64,000 nucleotides of DNA, from NCBI RefSeq assembly GCF_003018255.1, contig NZ_CP027440.1. One strand, given 5' to 3'. Of this stretch, positions 1 through 8,831 are shown piece after piece. Positions within the stretch are counted from its first letter, which is position 1. Each line of letters starts with the position of its first letter. Position numbers and translations under genes: made by a program. A model generated the notes under the pieces. That model ran no database searches. It was not told where the DNA came from and worked only from the letters and a program-made list of their open reading frames with translations. This stretch comes from Escherichia coli (GTDB taxonomy: Bacteria > Pseudomonadota > Gammaproteobacteria > Enterobacterales > Enterobacteriaceae).

Positions 1-43
1 CACTGGATAGATTATTAGCAGCATAATATGGGGTGAGGATAAT

Positions 44-67
44 GGCCGCTCCGTGCGGCCTTTTGAT
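44..67 (+). terminator. GC-rich hairpin GGCCGC-TCCGT-GCGGCC followed by TTTT; likely intrinsic terminator of the upstream plus-strand gene
   Basis: Inverted repeat plus T-run read directly at 44-64; abuts the yniB stop codon (67-69 on minus strand). Confidence 0.5.
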
Positions 68-603
68 TAAATAAACCCCAGCAGAGAAAAGAACACATAA
101 CCTGCAGCAATACAAATAACCGGCAGGATATACAGCGAGAAAAACTGCAGGAAAATAGTATGGTGCGGCACAACAATACGTGACTCAATTTGTTCACGCG
201 TTAGCCCCTCTTCCCCTTTGGCTTTTTCCAGAATGAGTTGATCTTCAACACCTTCCCGCAAGAAGCGCGCCTGGCGACTCATCCGGGCACCGGAATCCTG
301 CAACGCCAGTCCGACAAAAATCAGGAAGAAAATCACCCAGAACATAACGTTCACGCCACCATTAAAATTGGGCGTCGGGGAGTTATACCAGAACAGATTC
401 AAAAAAGGCGTATTCGCCTGCATCATATCGATCATGACATGAGTAAAGTCGAGCATGACCGCATTAATGCCTTCCTGGTTTTCCTGCCGGGTATTCATAA
501 ATTTAAGCAAAGAAATCAATGTAGAGATCAATGCAGGTATAAAAATCACCCAACCCAAAATCCTTTTCAAAACAGCAATGCGTCCAGCTTGTTGATACGT
601 CAT
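67..603 (-). CDS. yniB: inner membrane protein YniB
   Basis: 178-aa ORF, multiple hydrophobic segments; matches recalled YniB length and position upstream of yniC. Confidence 0.8.
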   Translation of the reverse strand: MTYQQAGRIAVLKRILGWVIFIPALISTLISLLKFMNTRQENQEGINAVMLDFTHVMIDMMQANTPFLNLFWYNSPTPNFNGGVNVMFWVIFFLIFVGLALQDSGARMSRQARFLREGVEDQLILEKAKGEEGLTREQIESRIVVPHHTIFLQFFSLYILPVICIAAGYVFFSLLGFI

Positions 604-749
604 GAGTTCTCCTTGATTAAGACGCGTCGTTTCACTTAGTTTACCTGTAGATATCTGTTTTCGCCCATTCTTTAAAGGCGATATGATAGGCGCTTAATCA
701 TAAGCACGGCTTAATACCTTACATATAATGCTCTAAAGGAGAGGTTGTA

Positions 750-1418
750 ATGTCAACCCCGCGTCAGATTCTTGCTGCAATTTTTGATATGGATGGATTA
801 CTTATCGACTCAGAACCTTTATGGGATCGAGCCGAACTGGATGTGATGGCAAGCCTGGGGGTGGATATCTCCCGTCGTAACGAGCTGCCGGACACCTTAG
901 GTTTACGCATCGATATGGTGGTCGATCTTTGGTACGCCCGGCAACCATGGAATGGGCCAAGCCGTCAGGAAGTAGTAGAACAAGTTATTGCTCGTGCCAT
1001 TTCACTGGTTGAAGAGACGCGTCCATTATTACCAGGTGTGCGTGAAGCCGTTGCGTTATGCAAAGAACAAGGTTTATTGGTGGGGCTGGCCTCCGCGTCA
1101 CCGCTGCATATGCTGGAAAAAGTATTGACCATGTTTGATTTACGCGACAGTTTCGATGCCCTCGCCTCGGCTGAAAAATTGCCTTACAGCAAGCCGCATC
1201 CGCAAGTATATCTCGACTGCGCAGCAAAACTGGGGGTTGACCCTCTGACCTGCGTGGCACTGGAAGATTCGGTAAATGGCATGATCGCCTCTAAAGCAGC
1301 CCGCATGCGTTCCATCGTCGTTCCTGCGCCAGAAGCGCAAAATGATCCACGTTTTGTATTAGCAAACGTCAAACTCTCATCGCTGACAGAACTCACCGCA
1401 AAAGACCTTCTCGGTTAA
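750..1418 (+). CDS. yniC: HAD-superfamily sugar phosphatase (2-deoxyglucose-6-phosphatase HxpB/YniC)
   Basis: 222-aa ORF with N-terminal HAD motif I (FDMDGLLIDSE); RBS aaggagag upstream. Confidence 0.85.
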   Translation: MSTPRQILAAIFDMDGLLIDSEPLWDRAELDVMASLGVDISRRNELPDTLGLRIDMVVDLWYARQPWNGPSRQEVVEQVIARAISLVEETRPLLPGVREAVALCKEQGLLVGLASASPLHMLEKVLTMFDLRDSFDALASAEKLPYSKPHPQVYLDCAAKLGVDPLTCVALEDSVNGMIASKAARMRSIVVPAPEAQNDPRFVLANVKLSSLTELTAKDLLG

Positions 1419-1529
1419 TGACCAGGGGGCAGTGATCACACTGCCCCTGGTTCTTTATCTGAATTTGCATTCAACTGACGGATTAATCGCCAATTTAAGA
1501 GAAAGAGTTACACCGTCACCACTTCCGTG

Positions 1530-1567
1530 CACTGTATAAAAACCCTATACTGTACGTATCGACAGTT
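1530..1567 (+). promoter_or_regulatory. Tandem overlapping LexA (SOS) boxes upstream of ydjM
   Basis: CACTGTATAAAAACCCTATA (1530-1549) and TACTGTACGTATCGACAGTT (1548-1567); second is a perfect CTGT-N8-ACAG box, ends 15 bp before the ydjM ATG. Confidence 0.8.
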
Positions 1568-1581
1568 TAGTGAGTTTTATC

Positions 1582-2172
1582 ATGACGGCGGAAGGTCACC
1601 TTCTCTTTTCTATTGCTTGTGCGGTATTTGCCAAAAATGCCGAGCTGACGCCCGTGCTGGCACAGGGTGACTGGTGGCATATTGTCCCTTCCGCAATCCT
1701 GACGTGTTTGTTACCGGACATCGATCACCCAAAGTCGTTTCTTGGGCAGCGATTAAAGTGGATATCAAAACCAATCGCCCGCGCTTTTGGGCATCGTGGT
1801 TTTACCCACAGTCTGCTGGCGGTATTTGCGCTGCTGGCAACCTTTTACCTTAAGGTTCCTGAAAGCTGGTTCATTCCGGCTGATGCGCTACAAGGAATGG
1901 TGCTGGGTTATTTGAGCCACATACTTGCCGATATGCTGACACCCGCCGGTGTTCCCCTGCTCTGGCCATGCCGCTGGCGTTTCCGCTTGCCTATCCTGGT
2001 TCCCCAAAAGGGCAACCAACTGGAACGTTTTATCTGCATGGCATTATTTGTCTGGTCGGTATGGATGCCCCATTCATTACCCGAAAACAGCGCTGTCCGT
2101 TGGTCATCGCAAATGATCAATACCTTGCAGATCCAGTTTCATCGGCTTATTAAGCATCAGGTTGAATACTAA
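1582..2172 (+). CDS. ydjM: SOS-regulated inner membrane protein YdjM
   Basis: ORF 1570-2172; start placed at ATG 1582 (MTAEGHLLF...); LexA boxes immediately upstream. Confidence 0.85.
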   Translation: MTAEGHLLFSIACAVFAKNAELTPVLAQGDWWHIVPSAILTCLLPDIDHPKSFLGQRLKWISKPIARAFGHRGFTHSLLAVFALLATFYLKVPESWFIPADALQGMVLGYLSHILADMLTPAGVPLLWPCRWRFRLPILVPQKGNQLERFICMALFVWSVWMPHSLPENSAVRWSSQMINTLQIQFHRLIKHQVEY

Positions 2173-2304
2173 AAAGGCAAAAATCACCTTTCTGGAATAA
2201 GCAATTCCATTTGAATATAAGAGCCAGCTCACAGTTCTGTTAATCTTGCGCCAACACTATGACTGCTACGCAGTGATAGAAATAATAAGATCAGGAGAAC
2301 GGGG

Positions 2305-3696
2305 ATGAACTTTCCATTAATTGCGAACATCGTGGTGTTCGTTGTACTGCTGTTTGCGCTGGCTCAGACCCGCCATAAACAGTGGAGTCTGGCGAAAAAA
2401 GTGCTGGTGGGTCTGGTGATGGGTGTGGTTTTTGGCCTCGCCCTGCATACCATTTATGGTTCTGACAGCCAGGTACTTAAAGATTCTGTACAGTGGTTTA
2501 ACATTGTTGGTAACGGCTATGTTCAACTCCTGCAAATGATCGTTATGCCGTTAGTCTTTGCCTCTATTCTGAGCGCGGTTGCCCGTCTGCATAACGCATC
2601 ACAGTTAGGCAAAATCAGTTTTCTGACCATCGGAACGCTTTTGTTTACCACACTGATTGCGGCGCTGGTCGGTGTGCTGGTCACCAACCTGTTTGGTTTG
2701 ACGGCTGAAGGTCTGGTTCAGGGTGGTGCAGAAACTGCACGTTTGAACGCCATCGAAAGTAACTATGTTGGTAAAGTCTCTGACCTGAGCGTTCCGCAGC
2801 TGGTCTTGTCCTTTATCCCGAAAAACCCGTTTGCCGATTTGACCGGAGCCAATCCGACGTCAATTATCAGCGTGGTAATTTTTGCCGCATTCCTCGGCGT
2901 AGCTGCGCTGAAGCTGCTGAAGGATGATGCGCCGAAAGGTGAACGCGTCTTAACCGCTATCGATACCCTGCAAAGCTGGGTGATGAAACTGGTTCGCCTG
3001 GTCATGCAGCTGACCCCTTACGGCGTTCTGGCGCTGATGACCAAAGTGGTTGCAGGTTCTAACCTGCAAGACATCATCAAACTGGGAAGTTTCGTTGTCG
3101 CGTCCTACCTCGGTCTTCTGATTATGTTTGCAGTGCATGGCCTTCTGCTGGGTATTAATGGCGTGAGCCCGCTGAAGTACTTCCGTAAGGTATGGCCAGT
3201 ACTGACGTTTGCCTTTACCAGCCGTTCCAGTGCTGCGTCTATCCCACTGAATGTGGAAGCACAAACGCGTCGACTCGGTGTTCCTGAATCCATCGCCAGT
3301 TTCGCCGCCTCTTTCGGTGCAACCATTGGTCAGAACGGCTGTGCCGGTTTGTATCCGGCGATGCTGGCGGTGATGGTTGCGCCTACGGTTGGCATTAACC
3401 CGATGGACCCGATGTGGATTGCGACGCTGGTCGGTATTGTTACCGTTAGTTCCGCAGGCGTTGCCGGTGTCGGTGGTGGTGCAACTTTCGCCGCACTGAT
3501 TGTGCTGCCTGCGATGGGCCTGCCGGTAACGCTGGTGGCATTGTTAATCTCCGTTGAACCGCTTATCGACATGGGTCGTACGGCGCTAAACGTTAGTGGC
3601 TCGATGACCGCTGGCACGCTGACCAGCCAGTGGCTGAAGCAAACCGATAAAGCTATTCTGGATAGCGAAGACGACGCCGAACTGGCACACCGTTAA
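2305..3696 (+). CDS. tcyP: L-cystine transporter (sodium:dicarboxylate symporter family) TcyP/YdjN
   Basis: 463-aa polytopic membrane ORF; RBS caggagaacgggg upstream. Confidence 0.85.
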
Positions 3697-3718
3697 TCCT
3701 GATTTGTTACGTTAAACG

Positions 3719-3744
3719 CCTGTCATCCCGACAGGTGTTTTTTT
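3719..3744 (+). terminator. Intrinsic terminator of tcyP (CCTGTC-ATCCC-GACAGG + T8)
   Basis: Hairpin plus T-run read directly; T-run overlaps the cedA stop codon on the opposite strand. Confidence 0.75.
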
Positions 3745-3985
3745 ATTCTTCGACCTCATTTTCCTGACGAATCTGATTTGCCCAACGCTGGGCGGATTCA
3801 GGCACAGTAAACGCCGGTGAGCGCAGAAATGACTCTCCCATCAGTACAAACGCAACATATTTGCCACGCAGCATCCAGACATCACGAAACGAATCCATCT
3901 TTATCGCATGTTCTGGCGGCGCGGGTTCCGTGCGTGGGACATAGCTAATAATCTGGCGGTTTTGCTGACGGAGCGGTTTCTTCAT
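3743..3985 (-). CDS. cedA: cell division modulator CedA
   Basis: ORF 3743-4006; start placed at internal ATG 3985 (MKKPLRQQNRQ...) giving 80 aa. Confidence 0.8.
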   Translation of the reverse strand: MKKPLRQQNRQIISYVPRTEPAPPEHAIKMDSFRDVWMLRGKYVAFVLMGESFLRSPAFTVPESAQRWANQIRQENEVEE

Positions 3986-4188
3986 TACTGGCTTCACTAA
4001 ACGCATATTAAAAATCAGAAAAACTGTAGTTTAGCCGATTTAGCCCCTGTACGTCCCGCTTTGCGTGTATTTCATAACACCGTTTCCAGAATAGTTTCCG
4101 AAGCGGGATCTGGCTGGTGGTCTATAGTTAGAGGGTTTTTTGACCAAAACAGCGGCCCTTTCAGTAATAATTTAAGGAGACGAGTTCA

Positions 4189-6450
4189 ATGTCGCAACAT
4201 AACGAAAAGAACCCACATCAGCACCAGTCACCACTACACGATTCCAGCGAAGCGAAACCGGGGATGGACTCACTGGCACCTGAAGACGGATCTCATCGTC
4301 CAGCGGCTGAACCAACACCGCCTGGTGCACAACCTACCGCCCCAGGGAGCCTGAAAGCCCCTGATACGCGTAACGAAAAACTTAATTCTCTGGAAGACGT
4401 ACGCAAAGGCAGTGAAAATTATGCGCTGACCACTAACCAGGGCGTGCGCATCGCCGATGATCAAAACTCACTGCGTGCCGGTAGCCGTGGTCCAACGCTG
4501 CTGGAAGATTTTATTCTGCGCGAGAAAATCACTCACTTTGACCATGAGCGCATCCCGGAACGTATTGTTCATGCACGCGGATCAGCCGCTCACGGTTATT
4601 TCCAGCCATATAAAAGCTTAAGCGATATCACCAAAGCGGATTTCCTCTCAGATCCGAACAAAATCACCCCAGTATTTGTACGTTTCTCTACCGTTCAGGG
4701 TGGTGCTGGCTCTGCCGATACCGTGCGTGATATCCGTGGCTTTGCCACCAAGTTCTATACTGAAGAGGGTATTTTTGACCTCGTTGGCAATAACACGCCA
4801 ATCTTCTTTATCCAGGATGCGCATAAATTCCCCGATTTTGTTCATGCGGTAAAACCAGAACCGCACTGGGCAATTCCACAAGGGCAAAGCGCCCACGATA
4901 CTTTCTGGGATTATGTTTCTCTGCAACCTGAAACTCTGCACAACGTGATGTGGGCGATGTCGGATCGCGGGATCCCGCGCAGTTACCGCACCATGGAAGG
5001 CTTCGGTATTCACACCTTCCGCCTGATTAATGCCGAAGGGAAGGCAACGTTCGTACGTTTCCACTGGAAACCACTGGCAGGTAAAGCCTCACTCGTTTGG
5101 GATGAAGCACAAAAACTAACCGGACGTGACCCGGACTTCCACCGCCGCGAGTTGTGGGAAGCCATCGAAGCAGGCGATTTTCCGGAATACGAACTGGGCT
5201 TCCAGTTGATTCCTGAGGAAGATGAATTTAAGTTCGACTTCGACCTTCTTGATCCAACTAAACTTATCCCGGAAGAACTGGTGCCCGTTCAGCGTGTCGG
5301 CAAAATGGTGCTCAATCGCAATCCGGATAACTTTTTTGCCGAAAACGAACAAGCAGCATTCCATCCAGGTCATATTGTTCCTGGTCTGGACTTCACCAAT
5401 GATCCCCTGTTGCAGGGACGTTTGTTCTCTTATACCGATACACAAATCAGTCGTCTTGGTGGGCCGAATTTCCATGAGATTCCGATTAACCGTCCGACCT
5501 GCCCTTACCATAATTTCCAGCGTGATGGCATGCATCGTATGGGGATCGACACTAACCCGGCGAATTACGAACCGAACTCGATCAACGATAACTGGCCGCG
5601 CGAAACACCGCCGGGGCCGAAACGCGGCGGTTTTGAATCATACCAGGAACGCGTGGAAGGCAATAAAGTTCGCGAGCGCAGCCCATCATTTGGCGAATAT
5701 TATTCTCATCCGCGCCTGTTCTGGTTAAGTCAGACGCCGTTCGAGCAGCGCCATATTGTTGATGGTTTTAGTTTTGAGTTAAGCAAAGTAGTACGCCCGT
5801 ATATTCGTGAGCGCGTTGTTGACCAGTTGGCGCATATCGATCTTAACCTTGCGCAGGCGGTAGCAAAAAATCTCGGTATTGAGCTGACTGACGATCAACT
5901 GAATATTACGCCGCCACCGGACGTCAACGGGCTGAAAAAAGATCCTGCGTTAAGTCTGTACGCCATTCCTGACGGTGATGTGAAAGGTCGCGTGGTAGCG
6001 ATTTTGCTTAATGATGAAGTGAGATCGGCAGACCTTCTGGCCATTCTCAAGGCGCTGAAGGCCAAAGGCGTTCATGCCAAACTGCTCTATTCCCGAATGG
6101 GTGAAGTGACTGCGGATGACGGTACGGTGTTGCCTATAGCCGCTACCTTTGCCGGTGCGCCTTCGCTGACGGTCGATGCGGTCATTGTCCCTTGCGGCAA
6201 TATCGCGGATATCGCTGACAACGGCGATGCCAACTACTATCTGATGGAAGCCTACAAACACCTTAAACCGATTGCGCTGGCAGGAGACGCGCGCAAGTTT
6301 AAAGCAACAATCAAGGTCGCTGACCAGGGTGAAGAAGGGATTGTGGAAGCTGACAGCGCCGACGGTAGTTTTATGGATGAACTGTTAACGCTGATGGCAG
6401 CACACCGCGTGTGGTCACGTATTCCTAAGATTGACAAAATTCCTGCCTGA
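4189..6450 (+). CDS. katE: catalase HPII (large-subunit monofunctional catalase)
   Basis: 753-aa ORF with catalase core sequence; RBS aaggagacgag upstream. Confidence 0.95.
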
Positions 6451-6454
6451 TGGG

Positions 6455-6700
6455 AGGCGGCGCAGTTGCGCCGCCTCAAATGATTTACATAGTGCGCTTT
6501 GTTTATGTCGGATGCGGCGTGAACGCCTTATCCGGCCTACAAAACTGTGCAAATTCAATATATTGCAGGAAAAACGTAGGCCTGATAAGCGAAGCGCATC
6601 AGGCAGTTTTGCGTTTGTCAGCAGTCTCAAGCGGCGCAGTTACGCCGCCTTTGTAGGAATTAATCGCCGGATGCAAGGTTCACGCCGCATCTGGCAAACA
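6455..6700. repeat. BIME/RIP-type cluster of REP palindromes (katE-chbG intergenic)
   Basis: Hairpin GAGGCGGCGC...GCGCCGCCTC at 6455-6478; canonical REP units GGATGCGGCGTGAACGCCTTATCCGGCCTAC (about 6510-6545) and inverted copies at about 6578-6607 and 6663-6697; central segment resembles an IHF-site-containing RIP element. Confidence 0.8.
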
Positions 6701-6707
6701 TCCTCAC

Positions 6708-7478
<771 letters not shown>

Positions 7479-8831
7479 TTAATGTGCTTTTTTAAGCTCT
7501 GCGATGCAGTCGGCAAAATTTGGCAACCATTTCTCGTGCGCCAGAATCATCTCGCGTGCCAGCAGCTCAGCATCGCGATCGGAATGCACCAACGGACTAA
7601 GGTTTAGGGCCAGTAACACATCGTTAAACTCTCCGCTAAGTGCGGCGTTGCTGGCAGCAATCTCGAAGCCTTTAATGGTGTGAATCAGCCCCATCACTTT
7701 ATCATCGAAATGCGTAATGCGCGGATGTGGCGTCGCGCCATCGCGCCCCAGCGTACAGGTCATTTCTACCGCCCAGTCTGCCGGAATATTATCAATATGC
7801 CCATGATGCGGGATATTAACGTAATGTTCAGCTTGCTTGTCGTTGTAGATAGCGTTGATCACTTCGCACGCTGCATCAGAGTAATAAGCCCCACCGCGCT
7901 GTTCCAGTTCTTTCGGCTTAACTTTCAACTCCGGGTTTTTATATAGCTCAAAAAGTTGTTTCTCGACTTTCTGTACTACCTGCGCTCGTGCGCCGCCTTT
8001 GTAGTATTCGCCCATTTCAATAGCCAGCATCTCTTTTTGCTTGAAGTAATAAAGCAAATAAGAACACGGCAACAGATTCATAGAACGAATTAAGCCTTCG
8101 CTAAATGGCAGATCGAAAATATTTTTAACGCCAGATGCTTTTAACTGCCCGGATGCCACACCATCAAGCAATTCGGCAAAGCGTGATTTGCCATTTACCA
8201 GCACATCCTTAATGAACACCATATGGTTGAGGCCGAACAGATCGATAGATAAATCATCGCTGTCTTTCAGCATCAGAACATCGCGAATAAACATCTTCAT
8301 GCCGATCGGAATATTACACACGCCGATAAAGCGTTTAAATCCGGTATGACGATAAACGGCTTCAGTGACCATTCCCGCCGGGTTAGTGAAGTTAATCACC
8401 CATGCATTCGGACATAGTTCTTCGACATCTTTTACGATGTCAAAAATCACCGGAATGGTACGCAGACCTTTAAACAGACCGCCCGCACCGTTAGTTTCCT
8501 GACCAAGATAACCATGACTTAATGGAATACGTTCATCCAGTTCGCGCGCCGGTAATTGGCCAACGCGCAGTTGGGTAGTAACGAAATCAGCATCTTTCAA
8601 TGCTTCGCGGCGATCCAGCGTTTTATAAAGCTTCATCGGGACGCCAGCGTTATCAATCATCCGTTGGCAGAGATCAAAAATAATATCCAGTTTCGCTTTA
8701 CCACCTTCGACATCCACCAGCCATAATTCGCTGACCGGCAATTCGTGATAACGCTTAATAAATCCTTCCAGTAACTCCGGGGTATAGCTGCTCCCGCCAC
8801 CAATAGTGACGACTTTTAATTTCTGGCTCAT
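7479..8831 (-). CDS. chbF: 6-phospho-beta-glucosidase (GH4 family, NAD/Mn-dependent) ChbF
   Basis: ORF 7479-8900; start placed at ATG 8831 (MSQKLKVVTIGGGSSYTPEL, NAD-binding fold) with RBS gggag upstream; 450 aa. Confidence 0.9.
   Translation of the reverse strand: MSQKLKVVTIGGGSSYTPELLEGFIKRYHELPVSELWLVDVEGGKAKLDIIFDLCQRMIDNAGVPMKLYKTLDRREALKDADFVTTQLRVGQLPARELDERIPLSHGYLGQETNGAGGLFKGLRTIPVIFDIVKDVEELCPNAWVINFTNPAGMVTEAVYRHTGFKRFIGVCNIPIGMKMFIRDVLMLKDSDDLSIDLFGLNHMVFIKDVLVNGKSRFAELLDGVASGQLKASGVKNIFDLPFSEGLIRSMNLLPCSYLLYYFKQKEMLAIEMGEYYKGGARAQVVQKVEKQLFELYKNPELKVKPKELEQRGGAYYSDAACEVINAIYNDKQAEHYVNIPHHGHIDNIPADWAVEMTCTLGRDGATPHPRITHFDDKVMGLIHTIKGFEIAASNAALSGEFNDVLLALNLSPLVHSDRDAELLAREMILAHEKWLPNFADCIAELKKAH

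What the first reader, a model, noticed from the sequence alone, without database searches (positions are those of the whole stretch)
3697..3742. tcyP (ydjN) and cedA are convergent with only 46 bp between them; ydjO is absent
I recall a gene (ydjO) between ydjN and cedA in K-12; here the tcyP stop and the cedA stop are 46 bp apart and share one hairpin terminator whose T-run includes the cedA stop codon. This is a second small presence/absence difference from K-12 in the same window.
Basis: partly seen in the sequence, partly recalled or inferred. Interest (0 to 1): 0.3.

Follow-up and report, generated by a model that had tools for sequence, protein, structure and literature searches.

The report
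Ancestral ydjO-free tcyP–cedA terminator spacer
This E. coli lacks the orphan gene ydjO that K-12 carries between tcyP and cedA. It keeps the older arrangement, two genes facing each other across a 46-bp spacer with one shared terminator hairpin, an ordinary variant found in about a fifth of sequenced E. coli.

Summary
tcyP (2305-3696, +) and cedA (3743-3985/4006, -) converge with 46 bp between their stop codons. The spacer holds one hairpin (3714-3740). Its T7 run (3738-3744) overlaps the complement of the cedA stop codon.

K-12 has 1095 bp here, at 34% GC, carrying ydjO. This is a common polymorphism, not a private deletion. About 1125 of 5426 complete E. coli genomes have the same compact junction and no ydjO anywhere, including CFT073 with an identical spacer.

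The compact form is ancestral. Of 75 related Enterobacteriaceae loci, 62 have a spacer of 110 bp or less, mostly with an A-run/GC-stem/T-run hairpin. Four other Escherichia lineages carry the same hairpin sequence.

The K-12 form is a derived AT-rich insertion. It replaced the terminator and the last ~30 nt of cedA (CedA ends ENEVEE here, EGEVTE in K-12). It is old: E. albertii has a 33%-identical ydjO homologue at the same site, and an E. coli sister lineage keeps a deletion remnant.

YdjO has no detectable family or function. One practical point: a published "E. coli-specific conserved" ydjO qPCR marker should miss about 21% of complete genomes.

Ordinary, low interest.

The parts
2305..3696 (+). 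tcyP (ydjN), cystine/sulfocysteine:cation symporter, 463 aa, stop TAA at 3694-3696
   Evidence: ORF list. RefSeq annotation of a 100% identical record.
3697..3742 (.). 46-bp convergent intergenic spacer. This is the ydjO-free haplotype. It is identical in CFT073 and orthologous to the 45-47-bp spacers of E. whittamii and three other Escherichia lineages.
3714..3740 (+). Terminator hairpin: stem AAACGCCTGTC / GACAGGTGTTT (includes one G.U pair), loop ATCCC. dG is -15.8 kcal/mol on the tcyP transcript. On the cedA transcript it is -12.8 kcal/mol with a C.A mismatch.
   Evidence: The equivalent A-run/stem/T-run hairpin is in 47 of 62 short orthologous spacers.
3738..3744 (+). T7 run, the U-tract of the tcyP terminator. 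Its last two bases are part of the complement of the cedA stop codon.
   Evidence: direct reading.
3743..3772 (-). Haplotype-specific 3' tail of cedA (stop codon plus the last ~9 codons; protein ends ...QENEVEE). It has 11 mismatches to K-12 in 30 nt, against 3 in the remaining 213 nt.
3743..4006 (-). cedA, cell division activator. It is 87 aa as called by PGAP, or 80 aa from the K-12 curated start at 3985.

Best explanation
The window carries the ancestral, ydjO-free haplotype of the tcyP-cedA junction. The two convergent genes are separated by a 46-bp spacer whose only feature is a palindromic GC-rich hairpin flanked by an A-tract and a T-tract, that is, a bidirectional intrinsic terminator.

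On the tcyP transcript the hairpin starts 18 nt after the stop codon. It has 11 pairs at -15.8 kcal/mol and is followed by U7, so it should terminate efficiently. On the cedA transcript the stop codon UAA runs directly into the A-tract of the same palindrome. There the stem has a C.A mismatch (-12.8 kcal/mol) and only a UUU tail, so termination in that direction is probably weaker. A ribosome stopping at UAA would cover the 5' arm until it is released. These termination steps are inferred.

K-12 and about 79% of complete E. coli genomes carry a derived haplotype instead. It is an AT-rich segment of about 1.1 kb holding the orphan gene ydjO plus a 288-bp spacer that published data report as H-NS-bound. 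That segment replaced the hairpin and the last ~30 nt of cedA. Both haplotypes are old. Each is shared with other Escherichia species, and flanking recombination has sharpened the boundaries. The comparisons are shown; the direction of change and the age are inferred from them.
For: Anatomy.

K-12 difference: 1095 bp against 46 bp, with the K-12 segment at 34.4% GC and the flanks near 51%.

Population:
- The compact junction is in 1123-1129 of 5426 complete genomes.
- The ydjO segment is in 4301 of 5426, and the two counts are complementary.
- CFT073 has the identical 46 bp.
- The window's nearest relatives over 25 kb are ST117 APEC strains (PMC6256689).

Ancestral state:
- Of 75 Enterobacteriaceae loci with both genes, 62 have spacers of 110 bp or less (median 64).
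- 47 of those 62 meet a strict test of A>=4, stem, T>=4.
- E. whittamii and two further Escherichia lineages have AAAACGCCTGTCATCCCGACAGGCGTTTTTT. A third has a close variant of the same hairpin.

Haplotype boundary and age:
- The cedA tail groups by haplotype. The window differs from K-12 at 11 of 30 nt, from E. whittamii at 4 of 30, and K-12 differs from E. albertii at 5 of 30.
- The cedA body groups by species. The window differs from K-12 at 3 of 213 nt.
- E. albertii has a ydjO homologue at the same site: 33% identity over 241 aa, E 7e-36. It is interrupted by IS1 in TW07627 and intact in 125 database sequences.
- Escherichia sp. MOD1-EC7003 keeps a 194-bp remnant, deleted between 9-bp repeats AGATCGTCA.

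Foreign and silenced character: the K-12 ydjO-cedA spacer is listed as an H-NS-bound 'promoter island' next to predicted foreign genes (PMC3661553).
Against: No transcript 3'-end data exist for this haplotype, so termination is inferred from sequence.

The generic terminator scan found 2 sites in 1 kb against 1.0 expected. By itself that is not significant.

The cedA-side U-tract is only UUU in E. coli, so 'bidirectional' may be overstated here.

The phylogroup distribution was not mapped genome by genome. B2 rests on CFT073 alone. Phylogroup G rests on my own knowledge that ST117 belongs to G.

E. fergusonii was not sampled.

Vertical retention cannot be separated from re-acquisition of the compact allele by recombination.
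Confidence: 0.88

Rival explanations
1. The compact arrangement is a secondary deletion: ydjO was present in this lineage and was later excised.
For: ydjO is clearly dispensable and decays elsewhere. There is a frameshift plus IS1 in strain AH62. IS1 interrupts ydjO in other strains. Escherichia sp. MOD1-EC7003 has a microhomology deletion.
Against: The 46 bp contains no trace of the K-12 segment. It is the orthologue of the spacer in four other Escherichia lineages, with the same hairpin sequence. The linked cedA tail (ENEVEE) also matches those lineages and not the ydjO haplotype. A deletion cannot rebuild an ancestral hairpin and gene tail. The one true deletion seen leaves a 194-bp scar.
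Confidence: 0.03
2. The strain did not inherit the compact allele vertically. It regained it by homologous recombination from a compact (B2-like) donor, using tcyP and cedA as flanking homology.
For: The region is mosaic. The spacer and cedA are identical to CFT073. However, the window's tcyP is closer to a ydjO+ strain (98.9%) than to CFT073 (98.0%). The window is 100% identical to strain 104 up to base 4435, and then mismatches cluster in katE. The haplotype boundaries are razor-sharp.
Against: Nothing contradicts it directly. It changes the route of inheritance, not what the feature is. The whole ST117-like group shares the allele.
Confidence: 0.25
3. The hairpin terminates only tcyP. cedA transcription ends elsewhere or through Rho, so the terminator is not truly shared.
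For: On the cedA strand the stem has a C.A mismatch, dG falls to -12.8 kcal/mol, and the tail is UUUAACG. E. coli has A3 where sister species have A4.
Against: In sister Escherichia and most other genera the palindrome is symmetrical, with long A and T tracts. That argues it is selected to work in both directions. Imperfect U-tracts can still terminate.
Confidence: 0.3

Closest known systems
Bidirectional intrinsic (Rho-independent) terminators between convergent genes, described as pervasive in E. coli by Ju, Li and Liu, Nat Microbiol 2019 (cited from my own knowledge; the title phrase occurs in the text of 65 papers in the library)
   Same: A single GC-rich palindrome flanked by an A-tract and a T-tract sits in a short convergent spacer. 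It is conserved in position across Enterobacteriaceae.
   Different: This instance is asymmetric in E. coli (A3/T7, one G.U pair). It has not been mapped experimentally. One stop codon lies inside the T-run.
The K-12 ydjO (b1730) locus: an AT-rich, H-NS-bound, predicted horizontally acquired gene with a 'promoter island' upstream (PMC3661553)
   Same: Same chromosomal site between tcyP and cedA. It is the alternative allele of the feature in the window.
   Different: The window has none of it. It is 1095 bp at 34% GC against 46 bp. It carries its own hairpins at both ends and a different cedA tail.
Lineage-linked presence/absence markers in E. coli, such as the yjaA, chuA and TspE4.C2 markers of Clermont phylotyping (own knowledge)
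   Same: A small accessory segment is present or absent according to deep lineage.
   Different: Here both states are shared with other Escherichia species. ydjO has been proposed as universally conserved in E. coli/Shigella (PMC11057252), which the genome counts contradict.

Membership tests
Intrinsic terminator (tcyP direction) | Stable GC-rich stem-loop immediately followed by a U-tract, just downstream of the stop codon | tested here: met
   11-pair stem at -15.8 kcal/mol, z = -4.8, followed by U7. It starts 18 nt after the tcyP stop.
Bidirectional intrinsic terminator | The same palindrome followed by a U-tract on the opposite strand as well (an A-tract upstream on the + strand) | tested here: inconclusive
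   The cedA strand gives -12.8 kcal/mol, one C.A mismatch and the tail UUUAACG. The strict A>=4 test is failed by the window and by CFT073, which have A3. It is met in 47 of 62 short orthologous spacers.
Bidirectional intrinsic terminator | Location in a short spacer between convergent genes, conserved among orthologous loci | tested here: met
   62 of 75 loci have spacers of 110 bp or less, and most carry one hairpin of this type, with the stem sequence varying between genera.
Bidirectional intrinsic terminator | Measured transcript 3' ends or termination activity | not testable with these tools
   No transcriptome data are available here.
ydjO-free (compact) haplotype of E. coli | tcyP and cedA contiguous, with no ydjO-related sequence | tested here: met
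   The alignment with K-12 shows this. The ydjO qPCR primers and probe are absent from the 64-kb window. In the collection, genomes with the compact junction (1123-1129) and genomes with the ydjO segment (4301) add up to the total of 5426.
ydjO-free (compact) haplotype of E. coli | Linked cedA 3' tail encoding ...QENEVEE | tested here: met
   The tail is identical to CFT073. It has 4 of 30 mismatches to E. whittamii and 11 of 30 to K-12.
CedA (Pfam PF10729) | Match to the family profile above its gathering score | tested here: met
   154.5 bits against a cut-off of 27, E 7.9e-46.
YdjO family (considered for the missing gene) | Membership of any described protein family, defence system or phage family | tested here: not met
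   - No match in Pfam, NCBIfam or PADLOC, and only a chance-level PHROG match.
- No similarity to YahL or YjfZ.
- Homologues occur only in E. coli/Shigella and E. albertii.
- The AlphaFold model has pLDDT 52.6, too low to search with.

The most novel reading that the evidence does not exclude
The tcyP-cedA junction is an ancient two-allele system that crosses species boundaries in Escherichia. One allele is the ancestral terminator spacer. The other is a fast-evolving, H-NS-silenced orphan-gene cassette (ydjO) that overwrote the terminator and the cedA tail.

On this reading both alleles have persisted since before the E. coli / E. albertii split, possibly under balancing selection. The alternative would be a recent gain or loss.

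Support: the tail divergence tracks the divergence of the cedA body within each haplotype. For K-12 against E. albertii it is 5/30 against 30/213. For the window against E. whittamii it is 4/30 against 23/213.
Probability: 0.3. Interest if true: 0.4.

Novelty: already known. Interest (0 to 1): 0.17.

Why it matters
Mostly it does not. The arrangement is a common, already annotated accessory-gene polymorphism plus a textbook terminator.

Two modest points follow:

1. ydjO has been published as one of three "conserved signature" genes for qPCR detection of E. coli/Shigella in water (PMC11057252). The amplicon (K-12 1812392-1812490) lies inside the segment that about 1125 of 5426 complete genomes lack. 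Those include the uropathogen CFT073 and the ST117-like poultry lineage. The assay should therefore miss those lineages. The protein also has an E. albertii homologue.

2. The locus gives a clean small example of an orphan-gene insertion overwriting a conserved bidirectional terminator and a gene's C-terminal tail, with both alleles shared across species.

Tried and rejected
**Function of YdjO.** Pfam, NCBIfam and PADLOC gave nothing, and PHROGs gave only a chance-level match (E 0.37). Paralogy with YahL and YjfZ, the other two "signature" proteins of similar length, was rejected. Plasmid hits were only mislabelled chromosomes. The AlphaFold model from six sequences had pLDDT 52.6, so no fold search was run.

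**A false remote homologue.** The exhaustive search returned one apparent remote homologue, P0034, at 26% identity and E 1.5e-36. It is an artefact. Its 2-kb contig (Logan SRR33321306) becomes 99% identical to K-12 once A and G are swapped.

**RNA and promoters.** Rfam found no RNA family in 3300-4300. The promoter scan found none there.

**Hairpin counting.** My first hairpin counter absorbed the A and T runs into the stem and undercounted tracts. I replaced it with an explicit A-run/stem/T-run test.

**Phylogroups.** I could not assign all 5426 genomes, because only 60 rows are listed per search. UMN026 (NC_011751.1) is not in the collection. Phylogroups D and F therefore remain unchecked.

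**Deletion hypothesis.** A deletion origin for the compact allele was considered and rejected (see rivals).

Full report
**1. Observation**

tcyP occupies 2305-3696 on the + strand. cedA occupies 3743-4006 on the - strand (87 aa as PGAP calls it; 3743-3985 from the K-12 curated start). A RefSeq record that is 100% identical over this stretch (E. coli strain 104) annotates exactly these genes. The cedA ORF matches Pfam CedA at E 7.9e-46.

The spacer 3697-3742 is 46 bp. It holds one hairpin: stem AAACGCCTGTC (3714-3724), loop ATCCC, stem GACAGGTGTTT (3730-3740). A run of seven T follows at 3738-3744. The complement of the cedA stop codon (TTA, 3743-3745) includes the last two T's.

Folded as RNA, the tcyP-sense strand gives -15.8 kcal/mol (z = -4.8; 0 of 200 shuffles as stable) followed by U7. 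The cedA-sense strand gives -12.8 kcal/mol with a C.A mismatch and the tail UUUAACG. No Rfam family and no promoter-like site lie in 3300-4300.

**2. Comparison with K-12**

In MG1655, tcyP ends at 1812325. ydjO (804 bp, - strand) starts 3 bp later. A 288-bp spacer follows, and then cedA. That is 1095 bp between the two stop codons.

Homology with the window stops within a few bases after the tcyP stop codon. It resumes about 30 nt inside the 3' end of cedA. The first 40-nt bin of cedA counted from its stop codon has 11 mismatches, and the base-by-base alignment places them all within the first ~30 nt. Later 40-nt bins have 0-2. CedA therefore ends ...QENEVEE here and ...QEGEVTE in K-12.

The K-12 segment is 34.4% G+C against about 51% for the flanks. 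It brings its own hairpins at both ends. Its ydjO-cedA spacer is listed among the H-NS-bound "promoter islands" associated with predicted foreign genes (PMC3661553).

**3. Population frequency**

- Among 5426 complete E. coli genomes, 1123-1129 have the compact junction in one piece.
- 4301 contain the K-12 segment, almost always once and at this site.
- The two numbers are complementary, so ydjO is absent from about 21% of the genomes and has not moved elsewhere in them.
- CFT073, a B2 uropathogen, has the identical 46 bp.
- The window's closest relatives over 25 kb (99.2%) are APEC O2-211, O78:H4 APEC and many poultry strains. APEC O2-211 is ST117 (PMC6256689). That ST117 is phylogroup G is my own knowledge.
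- In ydjO+ strains the gene is sometimes decayed, for example by a frameshift plus IS1 in AH62 and by IS1 insertions elsewhere.

**4. Which state is ancestral**

A scan of one genome per species for CedA returned 80 loci. In 75 of them both genes were found.

- 62 have a spacer of 110 bp or less (median 64 bp). Most carry one GC-rich palindrome between an A-run and a T-run, although the stem sequence differs between genera. A strict test of A>=4, stem, T>=4 is met in 47 of those 62.
- E. whittamii and two other Escherichia lineages about 90% identical to E. coli in tcyP have the same hairpin, AAAACGCCTGTCATCCCGACAGGCGTTTTTT, in a 47-bp spacer. A fourth lineage has a close variant in a 45-bp spacer. 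All four share the ENEVEE-type cedA tail (ENEIEE in the fourth).

The compact spacer in the window is therefore the retained ancestral state. A deletion of ydjO could not have rebuilt it.

**5. Age of the ydjO haplotype**

Three observations show it is old and not confined to E. coli.

- *A remnant in a sister lineage.* Escherichia sp. MOD1-EC7003 is the closest lineage to E. coli in tcyP (about 96%). It has a 194-bp spacer that is the K-12 segment with about 890 bp removed between two copies of AGATCGTCA.
- *A homologue in E. albertii.* E. albertii has an AT-rich (33.7% GC), 937-bp segment at the same site, with an ORF in the same orientation. In TW07627 it is split by an IS1 with a 9-bp target duplication. 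Removing the IS1 restores a 257-aa ORF that is 33% identical to YdjO over 241 residues (E 7e-36). An intact copy is present in 125 database sequences.
- *The cedA tail groups by haplotype, the body by species.* K-12 differs from E. albertii at 5/30 nt in the tail and 30/213 in the body. The window differs from E. whittamii at 4/30 and 23/213. The window differs from K-12 at 11/30 and 3/213.

Within E. coli there is also a divergent ydjO allele, 84.6% identical in nucleotides. Its dS is 0.44 against 0.11 for the adjacent tcyP, and its dN/dS is 0.27. ydjO thus behaves as a constrained but fast-evolving gene.

The simplest reading is one old insertion whose two alleles have been sorted, or exchanged by flanking homologous recombination, among Escherichia lineages. 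I cannot separate long-term retention from introgression.

**6. What YdjO is**

It is unknown.

- It has no significant match in Pfam, NCBIfam, PADLOC or PHROGs.
- It is not related to YahL or YjfZ.
- It is not on plasmids.
- Homologues occur only in E. coli/Shigella and E. albertii.
- The only apparent remote hit was an artefact contig with A and G swapped.
- The structure model was too poor to use.

**7. Mechanism**

*Shown:* the anatomy, the fold energies, and the conservation of position and architecture.

*Inferred:* the hairpin ends tcyP transcription efficiently. It ends cedA transcription less efficiently in E. coli than in sister species, because a C-to-T change (G.U on one strand, C.A on the other) and a shortened A-tract weaken that direction. 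Because the cedA stop codon abuts the palindrome, a terminating ribosome would cover its 5' arm until release.

Such bidirectional terminators at convergent gene pairs are a known and common class.

**8. Verdict**

The feature is ordinary: the ancestral allele of a common accessory-gene polymorphism, annotated in more than a thousand genomes.

The practical corollary concerns the ydjO qPCR marker proposed as conserved in all E. coli/Shigella (PMC11057252). It targets a segment missing from about a fifth of complete genomes.

Noticed in passing
window 6451-6707: The katE-chbG spacer is 257 bp here and in strain 104. It is 46 bp in CFT073 and in two ydjO+ strains (NMBU-W10C18 and 88-3493). The extra ~211 bp consists of REP/BIME-like palindromes (GCCGGATGCGGCGTGAACGCCTTATCCGGCCTAC, GTAGGCCTGATAAGCGAAGCGCATCAGGC).
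   Followed up: partly
window 4436-6500 (katE) and onward to ~22 kb: The window is 100% identical to E. coli strain 104 for bases 1-4435. Then 196 mismatches appear over the next ~18 kb, with 72 in bases 4001-7000 (mostly katE). No complete genome in the collection exceeds 99.2% identity over 1-25000. This looks like a recombinant katE allele or an unsampled strain.
   Followed up: partly
L090 (Logan SRR33321306 contig 56313): A public assembled contig is E. coli K-12 sequence with A and G interchanged. It is 99% identical after swapping them back. It generates a spurious protein (P0034) that looks like a 26%-identical remote homologue of YdjO in the 1.84-billion-protein library.
   Followed up: yes
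L094 (E. albertii TW07627, CH991859.1) 3992-8370: E. albertii has no katE between chbG and cedA; only 244 bp separate them. Its ydjO homologue is interrupted by a 768-bp IS1 with a 9-bp target duplication GGAACACCG. The same IS1 probably explains the contig breaks in draft E. albertii assemblies.
   Followed up: partly
L007 (Escherichia sp. MOD1-EC7003) 4244-4437; K-12 L003 421 and 1314: A ydjO remnant of 194 bp. The deletion endpoints coincide with a 9-bp direct repeat AGATCGTCA present twice in the K-12 segment, which points to a microhomology-mediated deletion.
   Followed up: yes
L033 (Enterobacter wuhouensis), L073 (Kosakonia sacchari), L078 (Siccibacter colletis), cedA-tcyP gap: The same convergent spacer has taken other insertions in other genera. 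These are a two-ORF transposase-like element that I read as IS3-family, landing inside the terminator hairpin; a pair of genes, one of which I read as a LysR-type regulator; and a small two-gene pair resembling a toxin-antitoxin module. None of these identifications was checked against a family library.
   Followed up: no
L005 (E. coli AH62) 3520-5262: ydjO is frameshifted, and an IS1 sits between ydjO and cedA. IS1 also interrupts ydjO in strains C21 and 503025. The gene is decaying in some ydjO+ strains.
   Followed up: no
window 3985-4006: The cedA start is ambiguous. PGAP aa from the ATG at 4006, while the curated K-12 gene is 80 aa from the ATG at 3985.
   Followed up: no
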